From an uncultured virus (IMG/VR IMGVR_UViG_3300005201_000719) (lineage: Duplodnaviria > Heunggongvirae > Uroviricota > Caudoviricetes), in IMG/VR virus record IMGVR_UViG_3300005201_000719: DNA of 64,000 nucleotides; one strand, given 5' to 3'. How positions within the stretch are numbered: position 1 is the stretch's first letter; each line of letters begins with the position of its first letter. Positions 1,907-64,000 of the stretch are shown here, piece after piece. The translations under genes were made by a program, and so were the position numbers. A model generated the notes under the pieces. The model saw nothing but the letters and a program-made list of their open reading frames with translations. It was not told where the DNA came from and made no database searches.

Positions 1907-3040
1907 TCATCTATTATTTACGAACAGTGTATCATATAAACTGTCCATATTTTGCACCGTTTTATAGGCATGGAAACGCCGGATAAAATTACCGCGCCAT
2001 GATTGGTATGATATCCGGAGATCCCCATAATTCATTCTTCCGGAATCCATCAGTTTTCGGAAACTGCGTAGTTTCCGGCGCATCCGTTTTGCGGAATCCT
2101 TTGTCGGTTTCCGCAACACCCTTCCGTTTTCCAACAGATAATACTTCCCCTTTAGAAATAATAAACCTTCTCGCAAAGGAAATATTCTCGTTTTCCTCTC
2201 ATTGACCGTTATACCTAAAGTATCACATACTATTTTTATTTCCGCAAGACATTTCTCTAAATAGCCTTTATCCTTGTGAATTAAATATAGATCGTCCATA
2301 TAGCGGCCGTAAAACTTTATTCTTAGGTTTTCTTTAATAAAATGATCAAGCTTATTTGGATGAAATATAGCAAATATCTGGGACACCTGGCTTCCCAATC
2401 CAAGTGAAATACCGGGACCGAATACTTTAATAAAATCCCAGGACAGGCTTAAAACCTGTTTGTCGTGTACGTGCTGCTGTACCTGGCTCATTAAGATACT
2501 ATGCTGAACGTTGTCAAAGTATTTTTTGAAATCTATTATCAGGGCGTAGCCGTCATTTGAATGCCCGTTCTGCCGGTAGAACCGGCAAAGGTGGGTTATA
2601 AGCCGCCGGATAGCAAAATGTACTCCCTTACCTTTAATGGATGCCCCGTTATCGTGAATCACGGTATTGGTAAGTATTGGCACAAGTACCTGATCGCAAA
2701 GGCATTTCTGTACTACTCGTTCCGTTATATGTACAGATTTTATATGGCGTATTTTCCCGCGTTCATGTAATATAAACTCCACAAAACCGCTCTGGACACT
2801 TTCCCCGGCTTCAAGCCTTCGTTTGGTTTCCCAAATGTGATGAAAGACATTCATCTCATAGCGCTGTGTGGATTCTTTCCACATTACGCCTTTTCGTGAT
2901 GATAGGAACGCTTTATAGAGATTATTGGGATCTGTAATGAGGGAAAAATCATCAAACCGGGCCAGTTTCTCATGGCGTTTTTTTTCACGCTCTGATTTTC
3001 GCCGCTGGTATCTGGCAACCTTTCTTTCTTCACTTGTCAT
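1907..3040 (-). CDS. DGR reverse transcriptase (377 aa from the ATG at 3040)
   Basis: RT motifs ERVVQKCL, IIDFKKYFDNV, LGLGSQVSQ (DGR-type SQ) and YGRYMDD; adjacent to TR and avd; GGAG RBS before 3040. Confidence 0.96.
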   Translation of the reverse strand: MTSEERKVARYQRRKSEREKKRHEKLARFDDFSLITDPNNLYKAFLSSRKGVMWKESTQRYEMNVFHHIWETKRRLEAGESVQSGFVEFILHERGKIRHIKSVHITERVVQKCLCDQVLVPILTNTVIHDNGASIKGKGVHFAIRRLITHLCRFYRQNGHSNDGYALIIDFKKYFDNVQHSILMSQVQQHVHDKQVLSLSWDFIKVFGPGISLGLGSQVSQIFAIFHPNKLDHFIKENLRIKFYGRYMDDLYLIHKDKGYLEKCLAEIKIVCDTLGITVNERKTRIFPLREGLLFLKGKYYLLENGRVLRKPTKDSAKRMRRKLRSFRKLMDSGRMNYGDLRISYQSWRGNFIRRFHAYKTVQNMDSLYDTLFVNNR

Positions 3041-3300
3041 AAACACACTCCATTGAAAAACCCTGTATAGCATCCCCCGGGCTATCGGCAAAGCATCAAG
3101 CCCGGGGGTATGCGTTATCATGCTACATAACATCAACAGGCATGAAACGGCAGGAACGCACACACCACCGCCATGCAAGAAGCGTTCGCCTGGACGTATC
3201 AGAGTTAAAATTCTCCGCCTAAAAAGGACGGAAGGATGCAGTCTCCTTCTGTGGGCGTACAAGTCGGTTATAAATAACCTACATTTGTTTTTGTATCCAC
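3041..3300 (-). ncRNA. DGR spacer region of the TR RNA, structured
   Basis: Lies between TR and RT; 10-bp stem 3074-3083/3099-3108 and hairpin GAAGGA-N7-TCCTTC at 3231-3249. Confidence 0.55.
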
Positions 3301-3304
3301 GGAA

Positions 3305-3397
3305 TCGGGGGCAACGCCACCCACCTCAGACGCATTGTTGTTATTGCTATTACCATTGTTGTTGCAATTACAGAAATTGGCGGCGGACGAAGCCGAG
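3305..3397 (-). repeat. DGR template repeat (TR)
   Basis: Minus strand reads TCG GCT TCG TCC GCC GCC AAT TTC TGT AAT TGC AAC AAC AAT GGT AAT AGC AAT AAC AAC AAT GCG TCT GAG GTG GGT GGC GTT GCC CCC GA; 10 AAY codons; aligns without gaps to VR1 and VR2. Confidence 0.97.
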
Positions 3398-3415: not shown

Positions 3416-4012
3416 TTACACTCTTACATTTTCCCCCTTCATTATTTTTTTGGCCATATCGTTAGTGGATTTTCTCCACCCTTTTAATAACCGTATTTCA
3501 AATTCTATTTTGTCAATAAATGGCAGTATTTTGCTCACATCAATAACAAAAGTGTTATACCTCAGGGAGAACACATCAGAAAAGTATTGCAGCTCCTGTA
3601 CAAGTTGTTGGCAGTTGGCGATTGCGGCCGTCTGGTAACGCCGCCTGTCCGCAAGTTCATCTGACTGGACGCGGCGGGTATACTCTTCCGGAAGTTTGGG
3701 AGCGTCAGGGTTTTTTGGATCTTCCATTGCTGACGGGTATATGGAGTTCCCGGCTGTTATATTCATCATCATGTTTCTGAGTATTTGCATGATGTTCCTT
3801 CTGAATTCGGCAAGCGCCCATTCCGGGAATTCTCCAAGGATAACACTTCCATCATCGTTTGGATCTTCAATGTACGTCTTACCATCGTTTGCGGTTTTAA
3901 TTTTTACTCCGAAATTTCGTAACAGGATAGCTGTAAGTTCTTTTCGTAATTGTCTGGCGTTGTTATAAAATTCTAGCTTAGACAAGCCTCTTTTATTCTT
4001 TATGACCGACAC
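3416..4012 (-). CDS. avd: DGR accessory variability determinant (Avd-like four-helix protein)
   Basis: Position between target gene and TR; MSVIKNKRGLSKLEFY start, GNSIYP, RRRYQTAAIANC, EIRLLKGWRKS. Confidence 0.8.
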   Translation of the reverse strand: MSVIKNKRGLSKLEFYNNARQLRKELTAILLRNFGVKIKTANDGKTYIEDPNDDGSVILGEFPEWALAEFRRNIMQILRNMMMNITAGNSIYPSAMEDPKNPDAPKLPEEYTRRVQSDELADRRRYQTAAIANCQQLVQELQYFSDVFSLRYNTFVIDVSKILPFIDKIEFEIRLLKGWRKSTNDMAKKIMKGENVRV

Positions 4013-4176: not shown

Positions 4177-5481
4177 CTACGCCACACAGAAAGCGGGGGC
4201 AACGCCACCCACCTCAGACGCAGAGGTATAGTAGCTAACACCAATGAGGTCGCAACTACAGAAATAGGCGGCAGACGAGGCCGAGGGGGTGTGGAGCCAA
4301 TGCCAGTCTCGCGACCCATTCCAGCGCTTTATTCTGTAGACATAACTCCGTTGATAAATCGGGAAATGCACATTGGTATTGTAATATTGCAATTCATCCC
4401 CGTATGTCTCAGCTCCAAACAATTCAATGTCAGTCGGCACCCAAACCGTGTAATTGTTCGATGTGGAGCTGCCTTTTTTGCTGTGGTATTTGCTTATTGT
4501 ATAGAGATAATTACCACCCAAAGCAGCCTTCAATCCGGTTGCGAAAGCTCCAGAACCATCCCCGGTTGCCCCTTCAAGCCATACCCTCAATTCGCTTGCC
4601 TGATAGCCACCGGTATTGGTATCAGACGGATTTACCCTTGCTTTAGCAACAATGTTTCTGAAAACGAACAGGATATGATTCTTTGTGTTTTCTGTGCTTC
4701 CGGCGTTTTTATACGTGTTGAACCCAGCAACGACGATACGGTTGTTTTTGTAGGTGTTATTCCACACCTGCGGCGCATTGCCGTTTGTTGGCGCCGCGAT
4801 ACCAGACAAATCCAACTCGTCTATATAGTCGCCTACCAATATGCCGCCAAAATGAGGGATGCCGGTATTGTCAATTTCACCATTGTTATTGCATCGGCGC
4901 CGGATTTCTGTCATTGCTTCGGCTATTGTAGCAACCCCAAAAACGGTTAAAAGATTTCTGCCAACACCGTCCACTTCCTGCGCGAGTAACGCCGGCAAGC
5001 CTTTTATTTTCATCTTTCCGGACGGCTCGATGAAGACTTCATCAAAAGCTTCACCGCCGCTAACAATGCCAGCAACGCCAACATTGTTACCAATGCCAAC
5101 GCTGTCAACGCCGTCATCCACCCACTCAAATATAGGCGGTTCCTCATTTGGGCTGTTATTCAAAACCCACACATGGCCATTTTTCAGGTTTTTGACGTGA
5201 GTGCCGTCCCAAATTTTTGTCTGGTCGCTCTGCCCGATCTGGTCCAATGCGTACTGGGTAAGATCGCCCTGGCTTGGGGTGTTTGTCCCAAAGTTATGAG
5301 CCGTCAAGTAACCGCCCCGGCCTTTCATGCCGTCGACTTTCTCTTTAAGATAAGCCGTTCTATCGGCAAGTTCTTTGATGGGTACATTATCGAGACCGTC
5401 AGGGCCGCCCTCTACAAATTCCTCCGCATCCCAGCCGTGTACGACTTCCGAATATTCAGCGGCTTCATTGATTTCAAACAT
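4177..5481 (-). CDS. DGR target 1: tail fibre/receptor-binding protein with a C-terminal CLec-like (DUF6273-like) variable domain
   Basis: N-terminal fibre anchor motif VEGGPDGLDNVPIKELADRTAYLK; follows the baseplate genes; the last ~35 codons are VR1. Confidence 0.9.
   Translation of the reverse strand: MFEINEAAEYSEVVHGWDAEEFVEGGPDGLDNVPIKELADRTAYLKEKVDGMKGRGGYLTAHNFGTNTPSQGDLTQYALDQIGQSDQTKIWDGTHVKNLKNGHVWVLNNSPNEEPPIFEWVDDGVDSVGIGNNVGVAGIVSGGEAFDEVFIEPSGKMKIKGLPALLAQEVDGVGRNLLTVFGVATIAEAMTEIRRRCNNNGEIDNTGIPHFGGILVGDYIDELDLSGIAAPTNGNAPQVWNNTYKNNRIVVAGFNTYKNAGSTENTKNHILFVFRNIVAKARVNPSDTNTGGYQASELRVWLEGATGDGSGAFATGLKAALGGNYLYTISKYHSKKGSSTSNNYTVWVPTDIELFGAETYGDELQYYNTNVHFPIYQRSYVYRIKRWNGSRDWHWLHTPSASSAAYFCSCDLIGVSYYTSASEVGGVAPAFCVA
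4193..4285 (-). repeat. DGR variable repeat VR1
   Basis: Gap-free match to the TR: 14 mismatches at TR adenines plus 4 non-adenine third-position mismatches. Confidence 0.95.
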
Positions 5482-31166: not shown

Positions 31167-31685
31167 TTACACTTTCCGGACATACAGCTCTTTGGAATAC
31201 CCGGTTGCCCGGGAAGCCATGAGCTTCAAAAACTCTTCTTTGGACAAATCGGTAAGCCTGAATATCTCTTCCGGCCGCATTCCCAGCTCTTTGCCGATTT
31301 CTTTAATGGTTTTCCCCTGGGTCAGCAGTTGTTTTACGATATTCTTCATCGGTTCAAGTAAATGTACGCCTCTTGCCCGGTTGTGGGTAACCGTCCCGTA
31401 AATATCCCCGGCTTCATCCGCGTGTTTTACGATTACGATAGGCACTTTGCCCTTGAGCTGGGTCTTTAGCGGTTCTTCCCCGGATACCGTCCAGCGGTGG
31501 AAGCCGTCTATGATGGTGTAATCCGGCCGGCAGACTATGGGAAGCGTCCAGCCGTTGCTCATAATGGATTTTACCAATAAATCAAGGTTTTCCCTTGATA
31601 CCTTATTGGGGTTCCAGTCATTTGCCTTTAATAATCCCCTGTCCACCCACTGTAGCGTGGATAGCGGCGCTGTTAGTTTGTTCAT
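31167..31685 (-). CDS. ParB/Srx-like protein (IbrB-like)
   Basis: ANDWNPNKV, GWTLPIV, IIDGFHRW, TVTHNRARGVH. Confidence 0.85.
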   Translation of the reverse strand: MNKLTAPLSTLQWVDRGLLKANDWNPNKVSRENLDLLVKSIMSNGWTLPIVCRPDYTIIDGFHRWTVSGEEPLKTQLKGKVPIVIVKHADEAGDIYGTVTHNRARGVHLLEPMKNIVKQLLTQGKTIKEIGKELGMRPEEIFRLTDLSKEEFLKLMASRATGYSKELYVRKV

Positions 31686-32815
31686 GTTTTCTTCCTGCTT
31701 TTCCTGTGTTGGTGTGCGTACTGCACGTTGATATTGGTGATAATGCCCCGGAGCGTCCTTTGTTTTGGGTCGCCGGCGATTAGACAGTCATAAATTTGCT
31801 TGTATATCCTGTTGCAGTCGATAATTGAGCCGTACTTGAACAGCAGCTTTATGATATGTTTGGCGTTCTCCAAAGAGCTTTCCATGACAAAATTCTTCTT
31901 GTGGTTCTGCAGCAGGTTAAAGACCTCAGCCTTATAATCCCGCGGGGTTTCCAGCTCCCTCCTGGTTTTGCTTGAATGCCGGAACATTTCGCTGTCCCAG
32001 TAGAGGGCCGCAAGGTAGGCGTTCGGCTCCCTCCGGATTATGCGGTCCATAAGATCCGGATAATACTCGTTCATCTTTACCAGGGATTTGGCCGTGTCCA
32101 CGGAAAAGAACTGGGACACCCTGAGCTGGTTAATCCGGATTCCCGCCTGATACATATACAGGTACACCTCCGGGATGTCGATTTTCTGTTCGTACAGATA
32201 CCGCCAAATATCCAGATCTTTCCAGTCGTACATCGGCCATACCATGTTCCCACGGGCCAGGCCGGTATTTGCCGAAAAGGAATACGTCATAAACTTAAGC
32301 CGCTGGAGAGATTCCGCCATCCGTACCCCCACAATACAGATGCCGTCCGCGTTGTGGCGCTCCAGGAATTGCTGGTATCTGTCCTGCCTTGCCTTGCATA
32401 AGGGGTGTTTGAAAATCGCGAACGGCGGCGGCTGGCGTACCCATGTTTCTTTTTTCTCGCTGTCCCAGCAGATAAAATACTCGTCCTGTTCAAGCAGGTT
32501 AAAGTATGAGTAATGCCGCACCTCAAGGCAGAACCAGTTAAACCGCCCTCCCGCCAAGAGGATTTTTTTTCGCCACTCATAGACTTTTTTTATTACGCAG
32601 TCGTACATCGCCTCTTCATCTATGAATTCCGCAATCATTTTTGAGGCGTCTATTTTGCCTTCTGCGGCCAATTTGAGTATCACGTCCATCATGCACATGG
32701 AATCTTTGCCCCCTGAGAAACTGACGTATACCTTCTTGCCGTTGGAAAAGGCGTTGATTATCCGCTGCCGGGCGGCGTCAAGGACGTTCTTGCTCCCCTC
32801 CCGTTTTACAACCAT
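31682..32815 (-). CDS. PAPS-reductase-family PP-loop protein (IbrA-like)
   Basis: VSFSGGKDS, FIDEE, GVRMAESLQR, PMYDWKDLDIW. Confidence 0.88.
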   Translation of the reverse strand: MVVKREGSKNVLDAARQRIINAFSNGKKVYVSFSGGKDSMCMMDVILKLAAEGKIDASKMIAEFIDEEAMYDCVIKKVYEWRKKILLAGGRFNWFCLEVRHYSYFNLLEQDEYFICWDSEKKETWVRQPPPFAIFKHPLCKARQDRYQQFLERHNADGICIVGVRMAESLQRLKFMTYSFSANTGLARGNMVWPMYDWKDLDIWRYLYEQKIDIPEVYLYMYQAGIRINQLRVSQFFSVDTAKSLVKMNEYYPDLMDRIIRREPNAYLAALYWDSEMFRHSSKTRRELETPRDYKAEVFNLLQNHKKNFVMESSLENAKHIIKLLFKYGSIIDCNRIYKQIYDCLIAGDPKQRTLRGIITNINVQYAHQHRKSRKKT

Positions 32816-33390
32816 ATCACTTCACCGCACTTCGGGCAGGTAACGCTTTTCAGCTCATCTGCCGGCGTTTCCGCGGTTACGGCCGCCTCCGGGTTGCCGG
32901 TTTCCTCGTTATTGACTTCCGAATGGGATTCTATTCCCATAAGGTTTTCTACCGTCGCCTTGCCGTAATCTTCCAACGCCTGGGATATTTCCTCAGACGC
33001 GGCGCCAATGGAGGTTAGTATATCGTCGTCAAATCCGGGGATATCGAAATCGCCGGCCAGGTCGTGGATGAGCTGTTCAATGTTGCCCAGGTTGTCTATG
33101 CCCAGGCCGGCCGTTTTGTTATCGGCCATCATCAGCTTCTTTTTCTCGTTGTCGGTAAGCTCGTATAGCATGACTACCCAAACCTTCTTAAAGCCCTCCG
33201 CTCGCATGGCTTCCACAAGGCCGTTCCCGGCAAGTACCAGATATTGATCGTCGATTACGACGTTCTTGTACTGCCCCCACTTTTTGAGGGAGCGGCGGAT
33301 CTCCGCTATCTGTTTTTCCGGATGTATGCGGGTGTTCAGCTCCGGCGTTTTCAGCAGGGCTATGCTTACCTCTTTACGTTCTTTCCGCAT
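32806..33390 (-). CDS. ParB-N domain protein with a C-terminal CPxCG motif
   Basis: NTRIHPEKQI, LAGNG, ADNKT, CPKCG. Confidence 0.8.
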   Translation of the reverse strand: MRKERKEVSIALLKTPELNTRIHPEKQIAEIRRSLKKWGQYKNVVIDDQYLVLAGNGLVEAMRAEGFKKVWVVMLYELTDNEKKKLMMADNKTAGLGIDNLGNIEQLIHDLAGDFDIPGFDDDILTSIGAASEEISQALEDYGKATVENLMGIESHSEVNNEETGNPEAAVTAETPADELKSVTCPKCGEVIWL

Positions 33391-34459
33391 GATTGTTCCC
33401 TCCGTTGTCTTTTTTTCTTTCCGCAAGGCGCCAGACTATGGCGAAAAGTACCGCGCCCAGAACGATGTAGATCCGGATTGACGCCATAAGCGTCCACACG
33501 CCAAGAACGCCCATGGGGATAAGGAGCTGCCAAAAGCCCACGACAGCGATGTTCAGGGCAAGCCCTATCCGGCGCCCAAAGGTGATGTAGACGCTGTAGA
33601 GGAATGAGGACACCGTGGATATCGCCACGAGGAAAATCAGAAAGGCTTTGATGATATTAAGGACCGGGTTAAAATGCGTCCACGCAAGCAGGAAGGTAAA
33701 CGTCAGGTACGCGCCGAACAGCAGGCCGCCCCCGATAAACGCCCGGCGTATATTGATTCTCTTTACTCCGGCGCCGTTCTTCTCGTTGTAATCCAGGATT
33801 TCAAAAAAGTACGGGTACAGGAACGGCCCGGGTATCAGCAGCACGCATTTTTGTACGCCCTCGATTATGGCCGGGGGTTCAATCCCCCAGGGCAGAACGT
33901 TCATCGCGCCGCGGGAATAGGCGATTGCCCCTACCGTCAGCAGCAGCGCGACGCCGTACACGGCCGCCCAGCTCGCATTATCGGTAAGCACGGTGCGGAT
34001 CATGCCGTCCCGGAACAGCAGGAAAATGAAGAGCGCGGCCGCCGCGTAAGCCAGTATAAGGCCGAACGTCCCGCCCATAGGCGTATCCTGGAACACCGTA
34101 TGGATGCCGTTCAGATTTAGCCACACCTGAAACACGCACATAAGGCCTGTGATGTACCGCATTGCCCGGCTCCGGAAGACGTCACGGAGCTTTGGTATCG
34201 CCGGCGCGAATAACCCGAACACAACGCAGGCCATTGTGTTCCCGAAGGCCCAAAGCAGAAACGGGACTATCCCGAAATTCTGCGCCATTTGGATGCCTAC
34301 CATGAGCGATCCTACTCCGGCCCATGTCGCCGCGATGGACATCGAGTAGTACCGAGATGGATTTTGGATAAAGCTTGATTTTACGCGCGAGAATACGCGC
34401 GGACTGTTACCGGCATCCGGGCGGTCCCCGGGCCGGGTTTTGAGATTGGTGGTGTACAT
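33374..34459 (-). CDS. Multi-pass membrane protein, solute-symporter-like
   Basis: About 10 hydrophobic segments; SIAATWAG motif resembling TM1 of sodium:solute symporters. Confidence 0.7.
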   Translation of the reverse strand: MYTTNLKTRPGDRPDAGNSPRVFSRVKSSFIQNPSRYYSMSIAATWAGVGSLMVGIQMAQNFGIVPFLLWAFGNTMACVVFGLFAPAIPKLRDVFRSRAMRYITGLMCVFQVWLNLNGIHTVFQDTPMGGTFGLILAYAAAALFIFLLFRDGMIRTVLTDNASWAAVYGVALLLTVGAIAYSRGAMNVLPWGIEPPAIIEGVQKCVLLIPGPFLYPYFFEILDYNEKNGAGVKRINIRRAFIGGGLLFGAYLTFTFLLAWTHFNPVLNIIKAFLIFLVAISTVSSFLYSVYITFGRRIGLALNIAVVGFWQLLIPMGVLGVWTLMASIRIYIVLGAVLFAIVWRLAERKKDNGGNNHAERT

Positions 34460-57225: not shown

Positions 57226-57432
57226 TTCTAGTATCGGAATACTAGAATATATATTAAAAATACCCCCGCCGTAGGGGCCTGTCAAGGTTTATAGCCAAAT
57301 TTTTTGAAAATTCTCCAAAAATCGTGTTTTTTTTGGGATTTTTTAGTGTTCTGGTATTCCGAAAGTGGGTCATTTTGACCCATATAGCTGTGTCATTTTG
57401 ACCCACAAAATGTCCCATAGTCGGAATACTAT
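57226..57432. promoter_or_regulatory. Divergent control region with repeated operator-like motifs
   Basis: Leftward TTGACA-17-TATTTT (57285-57257); TCGGAATACYA motif three times; GTCATTTTGACCCA twice. Confidence 0.6.
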
Positions 57433-58069
57433 TACCATTTTTTTCTTGATCTGGTATGCTTTTTTGATGTAGACTGTTCCTTATGGAAGGAATCACAGCA
57501 CTACAAATGTCCCAGATTTTGGGCATCTCAGCAGACGGTGTAAAAAGGCGGCTCCAAAAAAGAGGCATCAAACCGTTTATGTATTTAGGTCCCACTGGTT
57601 TGTACAAAGAAGCTGATCTGGAAGCCATAAAAAAAGATGGTGTCATGGGGCGGCCGAAAAAAGATCCGACAGCGAAAACCACCCCAAAGAAAAAGGCAAA
57701 AAAGACAGCTAAAAAACCCTGATAGGGAAACAGCTCTCCCTGCCTCTCCGGAATATGCTCCGGCTGCTTTGCCAGGGCTTCTTCCCTTTTAAGCTGATCC
57801 TCTATAAGCAACTCAAGCAAAGATTTCACTCTCCGGTATAAGCTGTTGTTTTGATCTGCTACCTCAAAAGAATCCCGTCGATGGCGCCGCGCCATACGGA
57901 GGATAGTATCGGGGTACATATTGATTGCTTTTGGATAGATACTTACGACATCAGTTTTCAGTTCATTGCCGTGGAATTCATGGCCGATAGGATAGCAGTC
58001 GATAACTTCTTTTACAGCATCGCTCATAGAGTTGAGTTTTTTCTCTTTTTCCTGCCGGCTATCTGCCAT
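57254..58069 (-). CDS. Hypothetical protein; only the N-terminal ~115 aa look like genuine coding sequence
   Basis: After QGELF the frame runs antisense through the HTH gene and the control region. Confidence 0.45.
   Translation of the reverse strand: MADSRQEKEKKLNSMSDAVKEVIDCYPIGHEFHGNELKTDVVSIYPKAINMYPDTILRMARRHRRDSFEVADQNNSLYRRVKSLLELLIEDQLKREEALAKQPEHIPERQGELFPYQGFLAVFFAFFFGVVFAVGSFFGRPMTPSFFMASRSASLYKPVGPKYINGLMPLFWSRLFTPSAEMPKIWDICSAVIPSIRNSLHQKSIPDQEKNGNSIPTMGHFVGQNDTAIWVKMTHFRNTRTLKNPKKNTIFGEFSKNLAINLDRPLRRGYF
57483..57722 (+). CDS. Small HTH DNA-binding protein
   Basis: ITALQMSQILGISADGVKRRL, GRPKK, basic tail. Confidence 0.7.
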   Translation: MEGITALQMSQILGISADGVKRRLQKRGIKPFMYLGPTGLYKEADLEAIKKDGVMGRPKKDPTAKTTPKKKAKKTAKKP

Positions 58070-58091
58070 GGAAAACGCTCCAGTAGTTAAG

Positions 58092-58115
58092 TCCCGCCCC
58101 ACGAGGGGGACGGGA
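58092..58115 (-). promoter_or_regulatory. Hairpin downstream of VR2, a homologue of the VR1 hairpin
   Basis: TCCCGCCCCACGAGGGGGACGGGA versus TCCCGCCCCACAAGGGGGCGGGA at 4136. Confidence 0.75.
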
Positions 58116-58131
58116 TGTTAGATAGGTGTGG

Positions 58132-58995
58132 CTACGCCACACAGAAGCCGGGGGCAACGCCACCCACCTCAGACGCACCGTAGTAATAGCTATGACCATA
58201 GTGGCTGCAAGTACAGAAATTGGCGGCGGACGAAGCCGAGGCAGATGATGTCCAGTACCAGTGCGTATCATCTTCCCAAACCTTGATCCTGTTTTTGATT
58301 TGCGAGAAAAAAGAAAGTTGAAAAGGCTCATCATAAAAATTAGATTCAGGTTCCCAGTATTCCCCGTCACCAAATAACTCCGTTGCCGTAGGCAGAGTAA
58401 TCTCCAGCCCGTCATTGTTTTCAAGTAACAAATCGGATATGTCCATCGCGTTGAGAAAGTCTGTATTGAGGTATTTAGCCAGAGCGCTTTCGGAGAAGCC
58501 CCCTTTGTTTGTATCTTTGGCGTTAATGGCGGATCTGAAAATTATATCTTCAAAGTTGAATAAGGCCTTACCATTCTCTGTTACTTCGACGAGCTGTACC
58601 TTCGATTCGATGTGCCGAGCAGGAAAGTCTAAACCGTCATAGCTTGCTGCAGGTACGTCAAACGAAACGCGGATAAAATCGCCAAAATTAAAATTCTCTA
58701 CCGCCTCTGCCGGCGCAGTACGGATATAGTCTTGTACCGCTTTGAACGCATGACGCCAATCACTGGCTCCCAAGTACCGTGTGAGATCGCGCGTTTCACC
58801 GGGGGCACGATTACCTTTCTCAGCGGTGTTTGCTTTTCCCGGTTTGTATCCCAGATCGCCAGGTACATCATCAACAGGCATCACTTTGAGTTTCAGCGGG
58901 GTAACTCTTTGCCGATACTTGCTCGAAAACTCAATGACTTCAAATCCGGCTTTGTTCATTGCCGAAATTGCCCTGTTCAATAAATCGTTAATCAT
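58132..58995 (-). CDS. DGR target 2 (remote): early-region protein with a C-terminal CLec-like (DUF6273-like) variable domain
   Basis: AGGAGG RBS before the ATG at 58995; DTNKGGFSES, LPTATELFG, RIKVW...WYW, ending SEVGGVAPGFCVA like target 1. Confidence 0.92.
   Translation of the reverse strand: MINDLLNRAISAMNKAGFEVIEFSSKYRQRVTPLKLKVMPVDDVPGDLGYKPGKANTAEKGNRAPGETRDLTRYLGASDWRHAFKAVQDYIRTAPAEAVENFNFGDFIRVSFDVPAASYDGLDFPARHIESKVQLVEVTENGKALFNFEDIIFRSAINAKDTNKGGFSESALAKYLNTDFLNAMDISDLLLENNDGLEITLPTATELFGDGEYWEPESNFYDEPFQLSFFSQIKNRIKVWEDDTHWYWTSSASASSAANFCTCSHYGHSYYYGASEVGGVAPGFCVA
58148..58240 (-). repeat. DGR variable repeat VR2
   Basis: Gap-free 93-nt match to the TR with 11 mismatches, all at TR adenines. 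Confidence 0.97.
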
Positions 58996-59024
58996 AAAAC
59001 CTCCTAAGTTCAAAATTGAACTAC

Positions 59025-59123
59025 TGGACCGGGGCGGAATCGAACCGCCGTTTTGACTGGTCGGGAAAAGGAGGTTTCAGAGGAAACCCGCCCACCCATG
59101 CCATACCACTAGACCACCGATCC
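59025..59123 (-). ncRNA. tRNA-like RNA with an oversized anticodon arm
   Basis: Acceptor GGATCGG/CCGGTCC-A, D loop AGTGGTA, T arm GGCGG-TTCGATT-CCGCC; ~49 nt where ~22 are expected. Confidence 0.6.
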
Positions 59124-59226
59124 AAAACCGCACAGAGCCGCGGCGTACACCCATGAACCTTCTGTGCCTATCCGTGCGTCCACGGACGGAAACTTCCGGC
59201 AGGTTTGGTTTAGCCCTCTGTGCGGA

Positions 59227-59307
59227 TGGGGACGGCAGGGGGCGAACCCTGCATGGCCTAGGCGCGCTGCCACTGGGCCGATTTGTATGACACCGCACCA
59301 CATCCCC
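59227..59307 (-). ncRNA. Degenerate tRNA-like RNA
   Basis: Acceptor GGGGATG/CGTCCCC-A, T-like arm GCAGGG-TTCGCC-CCCTGC, central stem GGCCCAG/CTAGGCC. Confidence 0.45.
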
Positions 59308-59509
59308 GGTAGGACACCCGATTTATATCCCGCTCGCTCCCTACTATCGCGGTTGCCCGTCTCTCCGGGCTGCCAAGCCTCTACTCCGTTCTGCCTCGGG
59401 CTTCCTACAGCTTCTCATCCAGTCGGATTTTGGGTGGGACTACATACGGCGTTGTACCCACAAATTCCGGACAGCCAGTACCTACACTATCCGTACCGTA
59501 AATTTTGAT

Positions 59510-59581
59510 TAGCAGGGGCTGGAATTGAACCAGCGACATCCGGCTTATGAGGCCGGCAAGCTACCGCTGCTTTACCCTGCC
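59510..59581 (-). tRNA. tRNA with CAT anticodon (Met, or Ile2); CCA not encoded
   Basis: GGCAGGG/CCCTGCT acceptor, AAGC/GCTT D stem, CCGGC-CTCATAA-GCCGG, GCTGG-TTCAATT-CCAGC. Confidence 0.9.
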
Positions 59582-59695
59582 TGGTTTTTTACCTCCTTTC
59601 TTTTCTTCCACGGAAAAACTTATGCCTCTTGTGGTTGTTAACCAGCCACAAGCCGATAAAACCGAAAACCCCGGCGATTACCAGAATCAATACGA

Positions 59696-60292
59696 TCATT
59701 TTTTTTGCGCTTCTTTCGGCGGTTCATCAGCCGGTTTCTTTTCTTCCTGACATGAGACCTTGATCGTTTCCATGCAGTTTGTAGATATGACAAGAACGTC
59801 CGTAGGAACAGTAATGTCCCCGGATGATTTTGATTTTCTCAAAATGATTTCGTCATAATCTTTGTTCTTTGAATTGGCCACAACCGCGCGGGCGTTAATA
59901 ATGGCGCCGCGGTTAATTTCCTGACCTATCGATCTGAGAATGGCGTCAACAATCTCCGTTGTCTTTTCTCTGACAAGCCCGTATGCAGATTTAGTCCGCA
60001 GATTGGTATCCAGCTTTTCAAGATAATTCTTGACGACCTCGTTTCCCTTTGTTGAAACCACACTGCAAAGCAAATCCTTCTGTTCGCTGGTCAATTCAAG
60101 GTTATTTTCCATGAAGGAATTTACCCTAAGATCATCAGCAAGCTTATTCGTAAGATCGCCAAAAAGATCATCAAGTGCATTAAGCCTGATCACCGATTCA
60201 AAAATATCGTGAACGGTTTCAACAATTTGCTCGTCTATTACCGGCCTGATGTCCTCAAAATCCGGTTGCTGATTTTGTACAACTTTCTTCAT
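59696..60292 (-). CDS. Hypothetical protein
   Basis: 198-aa ORF coupled to rusA. Confidence 0.55.
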   Translation of the reverse strand: MKKVVQNQQPDFEDIRPVIDEQIVETVHDIFESVIRLNALDDLFGDLTNKLADDLRVNSFMENNLELTSEQKDLLCSVVSTKGNEVVKNYLEKLDTNLRTKSAYGLVREKTTEIVDAILRSIGQEINRGAIINARAVVANSKNKDYDEIILRKSKSSGDITVPTDVLVISTNCMETIKVSCQEEKKPADEPPKEAQKK

Positions 60293-60294
60293 CC

Positions 60295-60699
60295 TTATTC
60301 TCCTTCAACGATTATTTGTGCTCCAGGTTTTCTGTCGGCGTAGTATTTCCCCGCGTCAGTCCTGTATACCTGGGCATCATCTTTCCAAACGCCGACATCG
60401 GACATTGAATCCATCACGGCCTTGAGTAAATTGTCTGTATCGGGCCGCTTTGTATGTGGTACGTTAAGGCTGTTTCCGGCGTTCTTCATTTTCTTTGGTC
60501 GGGGCAAATAAAAGCACACTCGCAATATCACCGGTCCGACAATGGTAGGGCGGCGGCACGGAAGAAACGCTGCTTCGATTTGTGCTTTCCATGCTTTGAC
60601 CTCAGATGAGTTGGAATAAAAATTCCCATACTGTCCCAAGCGCGGCCTTGATTGCGCCCTGGGTATACCGTTGACGAACAGGTGATACAGAACTTTCAC
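60295..60699 (-). CDS. rusA: RusA-family Holliday junction resolvase
   Basis: GIPRAQSRPR, KRPDTDNLLKAVMD, WKDDAQV. Confidence 0.9.
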   Translation of the reverse strand: MKVLYHLFVNGIPRAQSRPRLGQYGNFYSNSSEVKAWKAQIEAAFLPCRRPTIVGPVILRVCFYLPRPKKMKNAGNSLNVPHTKRPDTDNLLKAVMDSMSDVGVWKDDAQVYRTDAGKYYADRKPGAQIIVEGE

Positions 60700-61371: not shown

Positions 61372-61450
61372 AGCCACTTTAGTGGCGTTTATCTCACTAT
61401 AAAGCCAAAATAATGGCTTCGTCAAGCGGTAAAGCCACTTTTTTGGCTTT
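61372..61450. promoter_or_regulatory. Three operator palindromes GCCA-N6-TGGC overlapping the leftward promoter
   Basis: Sites at 61373-61386, 61402-61419 and 61431-61450; TTGACG-18-TATAGT on the minus strand at 61425-61396. Confidence 0.75.
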
Positions 61451-61479: not shown

Positions 61480-61902
61480 ATGAATTCAAAATTTTGGGAA
61501 AATGTTCGCGAGCAGATAAAAGACAAGAAAGATAGTCAGAAGTGGCTTGCGGATGCCTCGGGGGTTGGACGGACAGCGATAAACAATGGTATTGCCAAAC
61601 TGAATAAGCCAGAAACCAAGGGAAATACCGTAATAAACAGTCCGTCAGCCGACAATGCCTTTGCCATTGCACGGGTTCTAAAAACAACGGTTGAAGAACT
61701 GGTAGCCGGTCCGATTGGCGCTGAGTATGTCCGGCAGCTTTATGCCGCCAAGGGGTTACTATGGGAGCCTCCCGGGCGTATCGCCGACATCGTGGCGGTG
61801 CTGGACGCCGTAGACGATGAAACGCTGGATACAGTCAGGACAATGCTTCTCCCGCTGAAAGAAAAAAAGGGAGACGTTGCATCCGGTTTGGCGACAGGGT
61901 GA
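61480..61902 (+). CDS. XRE-family HTH repressor
   Basis: SQKWLADASGVGRTAI, PSADNAFAIARVLKTTVEELV. Confidence 0.85.
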   Translation: MNSKFWENVREQIKDKKDSQKWLADASGVGRTAINNGIAKLNKPETKGNTVINSPSADNAFAIARVLKTTVEELVAGPIGAEYVRQLYAAKGLLWEPPGRIADIVAVLDAVDDETLDTVRTMLLPLKEKKGDVASGLATG

Positions 61903-61923
61903 TGTACTTAAATTGAAGGAATT

Positions 61924-62217
61924 ATGCCAAGAAAGGTAGATCCGGAATTATTGCGGAAGCTCGCAGCAGAAAATAGAAGGCAAATGGAAGAATGCGGTCT
62001 CAAACTGTACGAATGGTCTACTTGTGGGGATGAGCGTGTCAGCCCGGCTCATGCTTTAATGGAAGGAAAAATCTGTAAGTGGGCAGATCCTACGGTTTGC
62101 TCGACCAATGGGAAAACGTGGAAACCCCGCCCGAAAGGAGCGCCTCACGCCCACCCCGGGGAAGAGGAAGGCTGCCGCTGTACCGCAATGAGCTACAGCA
62201 AAGAACTTTTGGATTAA
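61924..62217 (+). CDS. Stand-alone mini-MuF domain protein
   Basis: YEWSTCGDERV..H, HPG...CRCTA; 40/67 identical to the MuF core of 23740-25788. Confidence 0.85.
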   Translation: MPRKVDPELLRKLAAENRRQMEECGLKLYEWSTCGDERVSPAHALMEGKICKWADPTVCSTNGKTWKPRPKGAPHAHPGEEEGCRCTAMSYSKELLD

Positions 62218-62387
62218 GTTTTGGGAAAAAAAAGCTGCCCGTTCCAACAGTAGTCTTGAGGGAAAACTGATGTACACCGGGCAGCGATAGGTTCACAAAG
62301 TAAACCCAATTATCATTGTTAGCAATAATCGCATTGTTTGTCAACAAAGTTAGCGGAAAAAATTATATTCTCAAAGATAATAATGCT

Positions 62388-62573
62388 ATGGATAAGCAAG
62401 TTGTCTCAAAAGGGTTCCGCATTTCAGTAAAGGCAGACGAGGTTTTGAAGGAAGTGTCAAAACGGGACTTTCGGGACTTCCCAACCGTTGTAAGGTATTC
62501 GCTCCTTGCGTACGTCCAAAAGCAGCACCCGGATTTGTACGATGCCCTTGCCGCGGAATTCACCCCGCAATAA
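62388..62573 (+). CDS. Small ribbon-helix-helix-like protein
   Basis: KGFRISVKADEVLKEVS...VVRYSLLAYV pattern. Confidence 0.5.
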   Translation: MDKQVVSKGFRISVKADEVLKEVSKRDFRDFPTVVRYSLLAYVQKQHPDLYDALAAEFTPQ

Positions 62574-62683
62574 GCCCTTTACGGTCCAAAGTATTGCCAG
62601 ACACCTCGTTTTTGGACGTCCAGGGTTATTGTCTTATATACCATCCTCTTTTATACTCACTGGTACTGAATAAGGAGTTACCA

Positions 62684-63085
62684 ATGAGAAAAGCCGTTTT
62701 TATCGTTTTTCTGGCCGCAATAGCCGTGTCCGCGTGGGCCGGAACAGAGTTCCGGGATGCCTGCCGGAAGATTATTTATTCGGCCAATCCTGTTGACGAG
62801 GTTGCCAAGATAAATGATGACCGCCTGCGGTCGCTGACGCGGTTCGCCTTGGGGATAGCCGCCGAGGGCCAAGACCCCCTAAACGAGAATGACGCCCTGA
62901 TGTTTGCCTTCCTCGGTCGTGTGGAAATGCGGCGCCGACAGGCTACAGCAAACGAGTTCTCCCTGTTCCTGCAGGAAGAAAGGGAAAAACTACGCCCCTA
63001 TATCAAGGGGAGCGGCGACGTCACGGCATACGTCAAAATGGATAACTGGATCGATATGTACCAGTTAAAGCTCATTACCGGATAA
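62684..63085 (+). CDS. Exported protein with a signal peptide
   Basis: AAGGAG RBS; MRKAVFIVFLAAIAVSAWA. Confidence 0.7.
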   Translation: MRKAVFIVFLAAIAVSAWAGTEFRDACRKIIYSANPVDEVAKINDDRLRSLTRFALGIAAEGQDPLNENDALMFAFLGRVEMRRRQATANEFSLFLQEEREKLRPYIKGSGDVTAYVKMDNWIDMYQLKLITG

Positions 63086-63092
63086 TACGTTA

Positions 63093-64000
63093 TTACGACG
63101 CCTTAAACTTGATGACGTTCGGCGGATCTTCCTTTGGCGGTTCCGCCGCTTTTTCCGTTGCCTCTGTAATAATACTCCCAATATCACGGATCGTCTTACT
63201 TGTTGAATGAAGGTAGTTTATTGTCGTTTTCAGATCCGAGTGGCCTAACAGTTCTTGAATGTATCGTAAAGAAACGTTCCTTGCCTCCAGCAATGACGCC
63301 AGGGAATGACGCGAGCTGTGCGGAACAATTTCACGGCCGTTTAATTCTATCCCAGCTTTATTAAGCCATTTCTCAAAATGAGCGCCTATCCACCAAGCTG
63401 AGGGGATACTCCCGTCCTTGCGAGAAAACACAAATTCATGTTGGCCGTTTTCGGCCCACAGTTTTTTTATTGCCGCCTGTAGGATTGGATCAAATGGGGC
63501 TTTTCTTTCCTTTTTCCCTTTCGGTGGCCCCAGCACCTTGTCTTTATAGTCAAACATTTGCCATGCCCTGCGAACCATTATCTTTGGGGTGTGCCAGTCC
63601 AGATCCTCAGGCTTCAAAGCAAATACCTCAGCTCGGCGTAAACCAGAAAGGAACATCGCGCCGCACACCGCCAGATCCATAGTCTCAGTTAGAATACCCG
63701 GCATGAATAGCTGTAGCATTTCATCTTCCGGAAGGTGGTCTCTTGTCTTGCCTTCATATTTTGTAAGGTCAATGTACATGAATGGGTTTAGCCATTTGCG
63801 GTTTTTTCGTTGATATTGTTTGAACGCCATTTTGAAAAACTTTATAACGCCGGTCGCAGTACGAGTGCCGCCTAACATCTGATCGGATTCCTTTTTTCCT
63901 ATCAACTTTTTTTTAACGGATAATCGGGACATGAATTCCAAAATATCTTCTTCTTCAGTCTCAGCCATTTTTAACGAGGCTATCACATCGTTTTTTATGT
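63093..64000 (-). CDS. int: Tyrosine recombinase/integrase; 5' end lies beyond the window
   Basis: SGLRRAEV, HSSRH, LLGHSDLKTTINYLH. Confidence 0.93.
   Translation of the reverse strand, partial: IKNDVIASLKMAETEEEDILEFMSRLSVKKKLIGKKESDQMLGGTRTATGVIKFFKMAFKQYQRKNRKWLNPFMYIDLTKYEGKTRDHLPEDEMLQLFMPGILTETMDLAVCGAMFLSGLRRAEVFALKPEDLDWHTPKIMVRRAWQMFDYKDKVLGPPKGKKERKAPFDPILQAAIKKLWAENGQHEFVFSRKDGSIPSAWWIGAHFEKWLNKAGIELNGREIVPHSSRHSLASLLEARNVSLRYIQELLGHSDLKTTINYLHSTSKTIRDIGSIITEATEKAAEPPKEDPPNVIKFKAS

What the first reader, a model, noticed from the sequence alone, without database searches (positions are those of the whole stretch)
58092..58995. Second DGR target 54 kb from the cassette, in an apparently non-virion early gene
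Seen in sequence: 58148-58240 matches the TR over 93 nt with 11 mismatches, every one at a TR adenine (TR NFCNCNNNGNSNNNN becomes NFCTCSHYGHSYYYG). It has the same terminus (TTCTGTGTGGCGTAG), a similar CC.CACC.TATCT linker and the same GC hairpin as VR1. The protein shares the divergent CLec-like domain with target 1 but lacks the fibre anchor and any signal peptide, and it lies in the early operon downstream of rusA and the tRNA array. Inference: one TR diversifies both a virion adhesin and a cytoplasmic early protein, for example a hypervariable binder of host defence or regulatory proteins. Multi-target DGRs are known, but a function for such an early-gene target is not known to me.
Basis: partly seen in the sequence, partly recalled or inferred. 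Interest (0 to 1): 0.92.

Follow-up and report, generated by a model that had tools for sequence, protein, structure and literature searches.

The report
Second DGR target in early genes
A prophage's mutagenic retroelement rewrites not only its tail-fibre tip but also a small soluble lectin-like protein encoded among the early genes, a conserved gene family whose role is unknown and probably lies outside the virus particle.

Summary
Window 58148-58240 (- strand) matches the template repeat (TR, 3305-3397) over 93 nt with 11 mismatches, all at TR adenines (23 A of 93; P about 2e-8). It carries the same 3' end and two downstream hairpins as the fibre target VR1, and those hairpins covary across 22 relatives. 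VR2 is the cleaner copy: VR1 has 4 non-adenine mismatches, VR2 has none.

The 287-aa product has an N-terminal alpha-beta-beta module, a disordered linker and a DUF6273 C-type-lectin-like domain. It belongs to a family of 35 full-length homologues. In 11 of 12 contigs the gene sits among early genes and never beside structural genes.

In 3 of 3 lineages where a cognate TR is available, VR2 and TR share every non-adenine base. Non-cognate TRs differ at 10-13 such bases. This is concerted evolution by retrohoming.

One complete relative keeps the gene and the early module, but has an unrelated virion module and no DGR. A second phage lineage places a similar DGR target third in the operon beside the repressor.

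Non-adjacent prophage targets are already in print, so the layout is not new. The early-module family is. That the protein is cytoplasmic or not in the virion is inferred, not shown.

The parts
58132..58995 (-). VR2 target gene, 287 aa (ATG at 58995, stop TAG at 58132-58134). Layout: N-terminal alpha-beta-beta module (residues 1-40), disordered linker (40-58), DUF6273 / C-type-lectin-like domain (about 60-287).
   Evidence: ORF. Pfam DUF6273 E 4.3e-6. phrog_21980 E 8.9e-22. AF2 model. VIA-align: 9qa6_A DUF6273 domain Z 8.2, TvpA 2y3c Z 4.9. 35 full-length homologues.
58148..58240 (-). VR2, the variable repeat: 93 nt, 11 mismatches to TR, all at TR adenines.
   Evidence: exact count, P 2.2e-8.
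58126..58142 (-). Hairpin 1 across the stop codon (GTGTGGC-GTA-GCCACAC), part of the target-side recognition sequence.
   Evidence: Covariation: pair 27-36 is GC in 8, CG in 7 and UA in 3 sequences.
58093..58114 (-). Hairpin 2, a GC-rich stem-loop (CCCGTCCCCC-TCGT-GGGGCGGG) 11 nt after hairpin 1.
   Evidence: helix 2 is 94.3% paired, and 4 pairs change on both sides.
3305..3397 (-). Template repeat (TR), between the accessory gene and the RT; 23 adenines in 93 nt.
4193..4285 (-). VR1 in the tail-fibre target: 18 mismatches to TR, 14 at A and 4 at non-A.
4177..5481 (-). Target 1, 434 aa: a fibre-type N-terminus plus a DUF6273 domain, last gene of the baseplate/fibre module.
   Evidence: phrog_10372 and phrog_38759 at the N-terminus, phrog_21980 at the C-terminus.
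3416..4012 (-). DGR accessory gene, 198 aa. Conserved in 11 related cassettes. Predicted as four long helices. No Avd family match.
   Evidence: helices 12-31, 64-90, 109-148, 163-191. No family. Only generic bundle hits.
1907..3262 (-). Reverse transcriptase ORF. RT homology starts near residue 76, so the true start is probably the ATG near 3037.
   Evidence: phrog_1423 E 3.5e-80, residues 76-439. RVT_1. Translation.
59025..59123 (-). 99-nt tRNA-like element, 29 nt upstream of the VR2 gene start. Homologous elements sit directly upstream of the gene in 5 related contigs.
   Evidence: Rfam tRNA 39.5 bits.
59510..59581 (-). tRNA-Met (CAT).
60295..60699 (-). rusA, a marker of the early/recombination module upstream of the VR2 gene.
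   Evidence: Pfam RusA E 1.2e-23; phrog_140.
61396..61425 (-). Promoter-like site (TTGACG-18-TATAGT) facing the early operon, divergent from + strand regulator genes. A consensus match only.

Best explanation
VR2 is a genuine second target of the prophage's single diversity-generating retroelement (DGR). The RT (1907-3262) and its accessory protein copy the TR RNA into cDNA with errors at adenines. That cDNA replaces VR sequence wherever the target-side signals are present: the GC-rich TR-identical 3' segment, the target-specific end TTCTGTGTGGCGTAG, and the two downstream hairpins. Both the fibre gene and the gene at 58132-58995 carry these signals, so the element acts in trans on both.

The second target encodes a 287-aa soluble protein with a small N-terminal alpha-beta-beta module, a flexible linker and a DUF6273 C-type-lectin-like domain. 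About ten Asn-templated residues in that domain form the variable surface.

The gene is a conserved member of the early (recombination/replication) gene module, not of the virion module. I therefore read it as a hypervariable ligand-binding protein made early after induction or infection, which acts in the infected cell or is released at lysis. Its most likely ligand is a variable host protein or a protein of a competing phage.

What is shown: the TR/VR relation, the cis elements, the family, the synteny and the concerted evolution. What is inferred: early expression, a location outside the virion, and the ligand class.
For: (1) VR2 has 11 of 11 mismatches at TR adenines and 0 at the other 70 positions.

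(2) The cis elements are shared with VR1 and with 20 related VR1- and VR2-type targets. Across them, 93.9% of cells are paired and 6 of 15 pairs change on both sides, with 0 of 500 shuffles reaching that.

(3) Concerted evolution. Cognate TR-VR2 pairs have 0 non-A mismatches in the window, in G003 (L001 against the TR in L005) and in L029 against the TR in L014. The best non-cognate TRs give 10-13 non-A mismatches.

(4) Across 33 homologues, Asn-templated positions have 3.0 bits of entropy. Interleaved positions have 0.44 bits and the domain core has 1.18 bits.

(5) Synteny. In 11 of 12 contigs carrying a VR2-type gene, it sits next to homologues of rusA, the 198-aa gene, the xis-like gene or ORF 57254-58102. 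In 0 of 12 does it sit next to a structural gene.

(6) G001 (CheckV estimate 100% complete) keeps the gene together with the early/replication module. It has no detectable homologue of the window's capsid, portal, terminase, sheath or baseplate genes, no RT and no second DUF6273 gene.

(7) In a second lineage (G006, G007) a roughly 264-aa protein of the same layout is the third gene of the operon divergent from a cI-like repressor. It differs from the TR at 14 A and 1 other position in G006, and at 22 A and 3 other positions in G007. The two records carry the identical TR but different VRs.

(8) A crude hydropathy scan of all 33 homologues finds no signal-peptide or membrane-like hydrophobic stretch, and there is no structural PHROG match.

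(9) VR1 carries 4 non-A mismatches and VR2 none. VR2 was therefore rewritten after the last changes to the TR.
Against: - No expression, proteome or population data were available; no sequencing run was listed. The timing of expression and absence from the virion rest only on gene position and module co-inheritance.
- Most phage DGR targets are tail proteins (PMC8144416, passages read). A small N-terminal module on a flexible linker would also suit a protein that docks onto a particle.
- The VR part of the AF2 model is poorly predicted (pLDDT 33-43 for residues 250-287).
- In G003 the VR2 is 3 nt shorter than its TR. Simple cDNA replacement does not predict this.
- The L029-L014 pairing assumes that two separate contigs belong to one phage.
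- G004 and G005 end exactly at the VR2 locus, so they say nothing about presence or absence of the gene.
Confidence: 0.6

Rival explanations
1. The VR2 protein is a virion component after all. It would be an alternative receptor-binding tip or a decoration protein that docks on the tail or capsid through its N-terminal module, giving the phage two independently diversified adhesins.
For: - Its lectin-like domain is homologous to the fibre target (35% identity), and both match DUF6273 and phrog_21980.
- Published two-target phage DGRs are read as receptor-binding or decoration proteins (PMC10743442; bioRxiv 10.1101/2024.10.15.618418; passages read).
- The N-terminal module plus disordered linker looks like a tether.
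- Virion proteins need no signal peptide.
Against: - The gene is never in a structural module: 0 of 12 contigs.
- It is retained in G001, whose virion genes are unrelated. In the second lineage it sits next to the repressor/cro switch.
- It lacks the fibre N-terminus that target 1 has.
- No longer fused form of its N-terminal 135 residues was found (weak evidence).
Confidence: 0.25
2. The protein is made by the resident prophage and serves the lysogen. It would act as a hypervariable sensor or blocker of incoming phages (superinfection exclusion or defence), rather than as an early lytic function.
For: - The gene sits within 6 kb of the integrase end and directly behind tRNA-like genes that could be transcribed on their own.
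- A terminator-like site lies between the rusA operon and the tRNAs (59667-59688).
- DGR-diversified lectin domains have been proposed as antigen sensors in bacteria (PMC10907252, abstract seen; PMC10053308, passages read).
Against: - It is on the lytic strand, downstream of the xis-like gene and rusA, not with the + strand regulator and moron genes next to the integrase.
- No effector domain is attached.
- The promoter and terminator hits are consensus matches not clearly above shuffles: 11 found against 7.9 expected, and 15 found against 8.6 expected.
Confidence: 0.12
3. VR2 is a relic: a former target, or a duplicated lectin domain, that the DGR no longer rewrites.
For: - Orphan copies exist. 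G001 and G008 keep the gene without a cognate TR.
- In G001 hairpin 2 has lost one G-C pair.
- G003's VR2 is 3 nt shorter than its TR.
Against: - In the window VR2 has 0 non-adenine mismatches, while the fibre VR1 has 4.
- Both hairpins are intact.
- TR and VR2 have changed together between lineages.
Confidence: 0.04

Closest known systems
Bordetella phage BPP-1 DGR (Mtd, Avd, TR, Brt)
   Same: An RT plus accessory gene plus TR sit next to a C-terminal VR in a C-type-lectin-fold target. Substitutions are adenine-specific. The VR has a GC-rich 3' end and a downstream hairpin. The BPP-1 features are recalled and also summarised in PMC5758913 and PMC8144416 (passages read).
   Different: BPP-1 has one target, a trimeric fibre tip. 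Here a second target lies 54.7 kb away on the prophage map in the early module. The accessory protein is 198 aa with no Avd family match. There are two hairpins, one of which spans the stop codon.
Non-adjacent targets of phage-associated DGRs (Wu et al. 2018, PMC5758913)
   Same: That survey reports 'many examples' of phage-associated DGRs with one target in the cassette and another within 50 kb, presumed to lie in the same prophage (passages read).
   Different: The passages I read give no family, gene-module position or function for such targets. I did not read the supplementary table, which may list related elements. The distance here (54.7 kb) is slightly beyond the 50 kb they quote.
Faecalibacterium Toutatisvirus DGR (bioRxiv 10.1101/2024.10.15.618418)
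   Same: Two DUF6273 targets share one TR. The second is a core gene of unknown function 17,480 nt from the TR, and some relatives keep the targets without the DGR (passage read).
   Different: Both of those targets are interpreted there as receptor-binding or decoration proteins, and an early-region location is not reported. No sequence relative of the VR2 protein was found among 50,697 deposited phage records beyond two weak partial hits.
Tentaclin two-target cassettes (phages nd4 and nd12, PMC10743442)
   Same: One TR serves two DUF6273/C-lec targets of different architecture. Its small 'target2' is a single globular lectin domain flanked by short helices (passages read).
   Different: Both of those targets lie inside the cassette next to tail genes, and the tentaclin VR is N-terminal. 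Here the small target is detached from the cassette and sits in the early module.
Treponema denticola DGR with TvpA and remote targets
   Same: It is a multi-target DGR acting in trans. The TvpA structure (2y3c) is the second-best structural match to the model (Z 4.9, 115 residues). One homologue of the VR2 protein is named as coming from a Treponema sp. MAG.
   Different: The TvpA-type targets are cellular, exported lipoproteins of the FGE subclass (PMC5758913, passage read). The protein here belongs to a phage, has no signal peptide and is of the DUF6273 type.
DGR-diversified putative antigen sensors of multicellular bacteria (PMC10907252)
   Same: It sets out the idea of a hypervariable lectin domain working inside the cell in a conflict system (abstract seen).
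   Different: Those are cellular multi-domain proteins with signalling or effector domains. The protein here carries only a 40-residue N-terminal module and is encoded by a phage.

Membership tests
DGR variable-repeat target | A VR/TR pair whose differences fall at TR adenines | tested here: met
   11 of 11 mismatches at A and 0 of 70 non-A positions changed; P 2.2e-8.
DGR variable-repeat target | A target-side 3' recognition sequence (GC-rich end shared with the TR, then a target-specific end that differs from the TR) followed by a hairpin | tested here: met
   The GC-rich 20-mer is shared with the TR. TTCTGTGTGGCGTAG is present at both VRs but not at the TR. Two hairpins covary across 22 targets. 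The IMH/hairpin rule itself is recalled from the BPP-1 literature.
DGR variable-repeat target | The VR lies at the C-terminus of a C-type-lectin-fold domain | tested here: met
   DUF6273 covers residues 142-286. The model matches the solved DUF6273 domain of 9qa6_A (Z 8.2, 144 residues, rmsd 3.0) and then TvpA, Lcl, TaqVP and CTLDs at Z 2.2-4.9. The VR loop itself is poorly modelled.
DGR variable-repeat target | A DGR-type RT and TR in the same replicon | tested here: met
   RT phrog_1423 E 3.5e-80. The TR lies between the accessory gene and the RT. The translation contains LGSQVSQ, which fits the (I/L)GxxxSQ motif; that motif is recalled, not tested against a model.
DGR variable-repeat target | An accessory protein of the Avd or HRDC type | tested here: inconclusive
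   A conserved 198-aa protein occupies the Avd position and is predicted as four long helices. No family matched, and Foldseek gave only generic bundle hits.
DGR variable-repeat target | Ongoing diversification within a population | not testable with these tools
   No run was listed, and the protein's 90% cluster has a single member. Indirect evidence: concerted TR-VR2 evolution in 3 of 3 lineages with a cognate TR available, and different VRs under an identical TR in G006 and G007.
Phage tail fibre / receptor-binding protein | An N-terminal anchor or shaft homologous to fibre proteins | tested here: not met
   Similarity to target 1 is limited to the C-terminal roughly 170 residues. The fibre-type PHROGs match target 1 only.
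Phage tail fibre / receptor-binding protein | Encoded in, and inherited with, the virion module | tested here: not met
   In 0 of 12 contigs are structural genes adjacent. G001 keeps the gene but has unrelated virion genes.
Phage tail fibre / receptor-binding protein | Physically present in the virion | not testable with these tools
   This needs virion proteomics.

The most novel reading that the evidence does not exclude
Temperate phages of at least two lineages carry an 'intracellular antibody': a small early-expressed lectin-fold protein whose binding surface is rewritten by the same retroelement that retargets the tail fibre. Each incoming genome would then test a new binder against host defence or regulatory proteins, or against rival phages. 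DGR diversification in phages would thereby extend from adsorption to the intracellular stage of the arms race.
Probability: 0.3. Interest if true: 0.85.

Novelty: new variant of a known kind. Interest (0 to 1): 0.62.

Why it matters
Phage DGRs are understood as devices for changing host range at the cell surface. This one also rewrites a conserved early-module target that has no fibre anchor. The target is kept in mosaic relatives with different virions, and in the window it was rewritten more recently than the fibre itself. That would mean hypermutation is also selected on a function after DNA entry, or at least on one away from the tail.

The family offers a compact natural scaffold of about 230 residues with about ten randomised positions. 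It also makes the question concrete and testable: what does a phage gain from a diversified soluble binder?

If instead the protein proves to be a detachable adhesin, the result still documents a new architecture and a gene position that current DGR surveys classed only as 'unknown'.

Tried and rejected
- Own-genome search: no genome is held for this window.
- Sequencing runs: none was listed for 57300-59600, and no RNA holder was listed. Read laying was therefore not used, and population variation and expression remain untested.
- Foldseek against the PDB with the VR2 model: no match at E <= 0.001. The wider VIA-align search was used instead.
- N-terminal residues 1-105 in the ESM Atlas: only unnamed viral clusters at scores of 0.82 or lower and TM below 0.4. 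This gave no lead.
- N-terminal 135 residues against longer proteins: none of 145 candidates scored.
- Homodimer prediction for residues 1-48: no verdict (score 0.18 against a mark of 0.42). This counts neither for nor against.
- A 20-nt scan of viral contigs with the GC-rich VR end found only one 9.6-kb contig with its own TR and VR1. No near-identical copy of this phage was found.
- Deposited phages: 2 weak partial hits in 50,697 records.
- Accessory protein against the PDB: only generic helical bundles.
- Rejected idea: that G004 and G005 lack the VR2 gene. Their contigs end at the neighbouring gene.
- Rejected idea: that the 54-kb distance matters mechanistically. The element acts through a diffusible cDNA, and the circular distance is shorter.
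- Literature searches for an early-gene, cytoplasmic, anti-defence or superinfection role of a phage DGR target found no such report in the held library. Subscription-only papers and bioRxiv supplements were not visible.

Full report
**Observation**

The window is a temperate myovirus-type prophage read almost entirely on the minus strand (PHROGs; Pfam). In transcription order it contains:
- integrase at 63093-63986;
- + strand regulators at 61480-63085;
- an xis-like gene, then rusA at 60295-60699;
- recombination and replication genes at 46-55 kb;
- terminase, portal, capsid, sheath, tape measure and baseplate from 31 kb down to 6 kb;
- a DGR cassette at the far end: fibre target 4177-5481, accessory gene 3416-4012, TR 3305-3397 and RT 1907-3262.

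The repeat finder reports exactly three copies of the repeat. An exact comparison gives:

| Copy | Coordinates (- strand) | Mismatches to TR | At TR adenines | At other bases |
|---|---|---|---|---|
| VR2 | 58148-58240 | 11 | 11 | 0 |
| VR1 | 4193-4285 | 18 | 14 | 4 |

TR holds 23 A in 93 nt, so the chance of the VR2 pattern is 2.2e-8.

**Cis elements**

Downstream of the GC-rich TR-identical segment, both VRs switch to a target-specific end that the TR lacks. Two hairpins follow. One spans the stop codon (58126-58142). The other is GC-rich (58093-58114).

I aligned this region from 22 VR1-type and VR2-type targets. In that alignment 93.9% of cells pair. Six of 15 pairs change on both sides, and no shuffle out of 500 reaches this. 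Sliding the 3' partner drops pairing to 37-56%. The early-region gene therefore carries the full target signature, and that signature is under selection.

**The protein and its family**

The 287-aa product matches Pfam DUF6273 and phrog_21980. An AlphaFold2 model built on 33 homologues (pLDDT 70, pTM 0.67) shows a helix-strand-strand module (residues 1-40), a disordered linker (40-58) and a confident globular domain. The VR tail is poorly modelled.

Foldseek found nothing. VIA-align placed the solved DUF6273 domain of the Thomasclavelia ramosa IgA peptidase first (9qa6_A, Z 8.2, 144 residues). That domain's identity as DUF6273 is confirmed in PMC12402451 (passage read). Next came TvpA (Z 4.9), Lcl, TaqVP and animal CTLDs. 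The N-terminal module gave only weak, uninformative matches (Z up to 3.6).

The database holds 35 full-length homologues at 44-67% identity. All are metagenomic, and one is labelled as a Treponema sp. MAG. Across 33 of them, the Asn-templated positions have 3.0 bits of entropy. The interleaved scaffold positions have 0.44 bits and the domain core has 1.18 bits.

Similarity to the fibre target is limited to the C-terminal roughly 170 residues at 35% identity. At DNA level it is limited to the last 110 nt. So the two domains are old paralogues whose VR segments alone are kept alike by the TR.

**Evidence that the DGR acts on VR2**

A cognate TR is available in three lineages: the window, the 67.7-kb record G003 (L001 and L005), and L029 paired with the TR in L014. 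In all three, VR2 differs from its TR only at adenines (10-11, 11 and 8 sites; 0 non-A). The best non-cognate TR differs at 10-13 non-adenine sites. TR and VR2 have therefore changed together, which is what repeated retrohoming predicts.

In the window, two of VR1's four non-adenine mismatches reproduce the state seen in the G003 lineage. The other two correspond to a swap of AAT AAC in the TR against TAC TAT in VR1. VR2 follows the present TR at all four. The simplest reading is that VR2 was rewritten after the TR last changed and VR1 was not.

One oddity remains: G003's VR2 is one codon shorter than its TR.

**Where the gene lives**

Of 12 distinct contigs with a VR2-type gene, 11 show it flanked by homologues of rusA, the 198-aa gene, the xis-like gene or ORF 57254-58102. 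None shows structural neighbours. The twelfth contig (L034) has no recognisable neighbours apart from an HNH gene.

Whole-record comparison is the most telling result:
- **G003** matches the window in all modules.
- **G001** (CheckV estimate 100% complete) shares the early and replication genes, including this gene. It has no detectable homologue of the window's terminase, portal, capsid, sheath or baseplate genes, no RT (with G003-G005 as positive controls) and no other DUF6273 gene.
- **G004 and G005** end exactly at the locus and are uninformative.

The gene thus travels with the early module and survives both a change of virion and the loss of the DGR.

**A second lineage**

More distant proteins (28-34% identity, about 260 aa, same layout) are the third gene of an operon divergent from a cI-like repressor next to an integrase. 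In IMG/VR records G006 and G007, an RT with an adjacent 703-aa DUF6273 target lies about 15 kb from this gene. The two records share an identical TR, yet their early-gene VRs differ from it at 14 A and 1 other position (G006) and at 22 A and 3 other positions (G007). G008 keeps the gene without any TR copy. L035 and L043 are 95.6% identical in the largest aligned block (4,115 nt) but diverge most in the VR and in the linker.

**Mechanism and function**

The homing mechanism follows the established DGR model and is well supported here. The function is inferred from these points:
- the gene's position 2.3 kb into the operon that starts at a promoter-like site facing away from the regulators (consensus only);
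- a GGAGG 5-9 nt before the ATG;
- the absence of any hydrophobic leader or membrane segment in all 33 homologues (crude);
- the module co-inheritance described above.

Together these favour a soluble protein made early. I put about 0.93 on 'genuine DGR target' and about 0.6 on 'not a virion part'. Within the non-virion reading, I judge a binder of host or rival-phage proteins more likely than a lysogen-expressed exclusion factor. The main rival is a detachable adhesin or decoration protein.

**Comparison with the literature**

- Wu et al. (PMC5758913, passages read) state that phage-associated DGRs often have a second, non-adjacent target within 50 kb in the same prophage.
- Egorov et al. (bioRxiv 10.1101/2024.10.15.618418, passage read) describe a core DUF6273 target 17.5 kb from the TR in Toutatisvirus, and relatives that keep the targets without the DGR.
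- Baykov et al. (PMC10743442, passages read) describe two-target cassettes.
- Roux et al. (PMC8144416, passages read) class viral targets as tail-structural or 'unknown'.

None of the passages I read, and none of five full-text searches, reports a DGR target that belongs to the early module or proposes an intracellular role for a phage target. Supplementary tables were not examined and may list members of this family.

**Verdict**

The two-target layout is a known kind of arrangement. What is new:
- the early-module DUF6273 family and its recurrence in two lineages;
- its independence from the virion module;
- the finding that in the window it, rather than the fibre, carries the most recent rewrite.

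This is a new variant of a known kind, of moderate to high interest.

Noticed in passing
window 59025-59123 (-); L001 5093-5180; L002 7437-7522; L024 1407-1488; L028 402-488; L031 98-187: A homologous 82-99-nt tRNA-like element sits about 20-80 nt upstream of the VR2-type gene in six lineages. ARAGORN assigns different anticodons (CCG, CTT, TTA = stop, CCT) at unusual positions 36-39 and misses the window copy. Rfam scores the window copy 39.5 bits. It could be an aberrant or suppressor tRNA, or a processing signal for the downstream mRNA.
   Followed up: partly
window 4193-4285 against 3305-3397: The fibre VR1 has 4 non-adenine mismatches to the TR (T>C, C>T, T>C, C>T). By contrast, 9 of 14 related VR1s have 0-1 (the other five show 2, 6 and 11, or a truncated TR, where the 5' VR/TR boundary is uncertain). 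This suggests VR1 has not been rewritten since the TR last changed.
   Followed up: yes
L037 615-920: This is a degenerate DGR. The first roughly 20 codons of the accessory gene are fused directly to the last 37 nt of the TR, deleting the rest of the accessory gene and most of the TR. VR1 and the RT remain.
   Followed up: partly
window 57254-58102 (-) and 57483-57722 (+): The 282-aa minus-strand ORF downstream of the VR2 gene is overlapped antisense by a 79-aa + strand ORF with an HTH-like N-terminus and a Lys-rich tail. The Phe-rich second half of the minus ORF looks like the antisense of that tail. Only the first roughly 115 residues of the minus ORF are conserved in most relatives, so which frame is real remains unclear.
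   Followed up: partly
window 3416-4012 (-): The DGR accessory protein is 198 aa, longer than Avd as I recall it. It is conserved in 11 related cassettes and predicted as four long helices with a disordered insert (residues 40-59). It matches no Pfam, PHROG or NCBIfam family.
   Followed up: partly
window 3038-3262 (-): The RT ORF as listed starts at a TTG 75 codons before RT homology begins and overlaps the region just downstream of the TR. The real start is probably the ATG at MTSEERK. In relatives the upstream stretch contains stop codons.
   Followed up: no
L002 / G001 59170-60093: A phage record estimated 100% complete keeps the VR2-type gene but has no RT, no TR and no fibre-type DUF6273 gene. 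Its GC hairpin has lost one G-C pair, and its VR still holds several AAC codons.
   Followed up: partly
window 31167-34459 (-): A block of two ParB-like nuclease genes, a PAPS-reductase-like gene and a 361-aa ORF is the best-conserved part of the genome: 65-86% identity in all five compared records, including those with unrelated virion modules. It may be a DNA-modification module.
   Followed up: no
window 12948-13546 (-): The tape-measure gene contains seven overlapping copies of a 116-nt unit (two clusters) spaced 33 nt apart, i.e. an 11-codon period (repeat finder family D1).
   Followed up: no
window 62594-63085 (+): A + strand ORF next to the integrase has an internal start followed by a signal-peptide-like hydrophobic stretch (12-residue hydropathy 3.2). 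It is a candidate lysogen-expressed secreted moron, and is 80% conserved in G003.
   Followed up: no
L002 29-101; L003 26-99; L025 215-292: Host-type tRNA genes (Ala, Asn, Pro) lie just outside the integrase in three relatives. This suggests tRNA-gene attachment sites and places the prophage end just beyond the right edge of the window.
   Followed up: no
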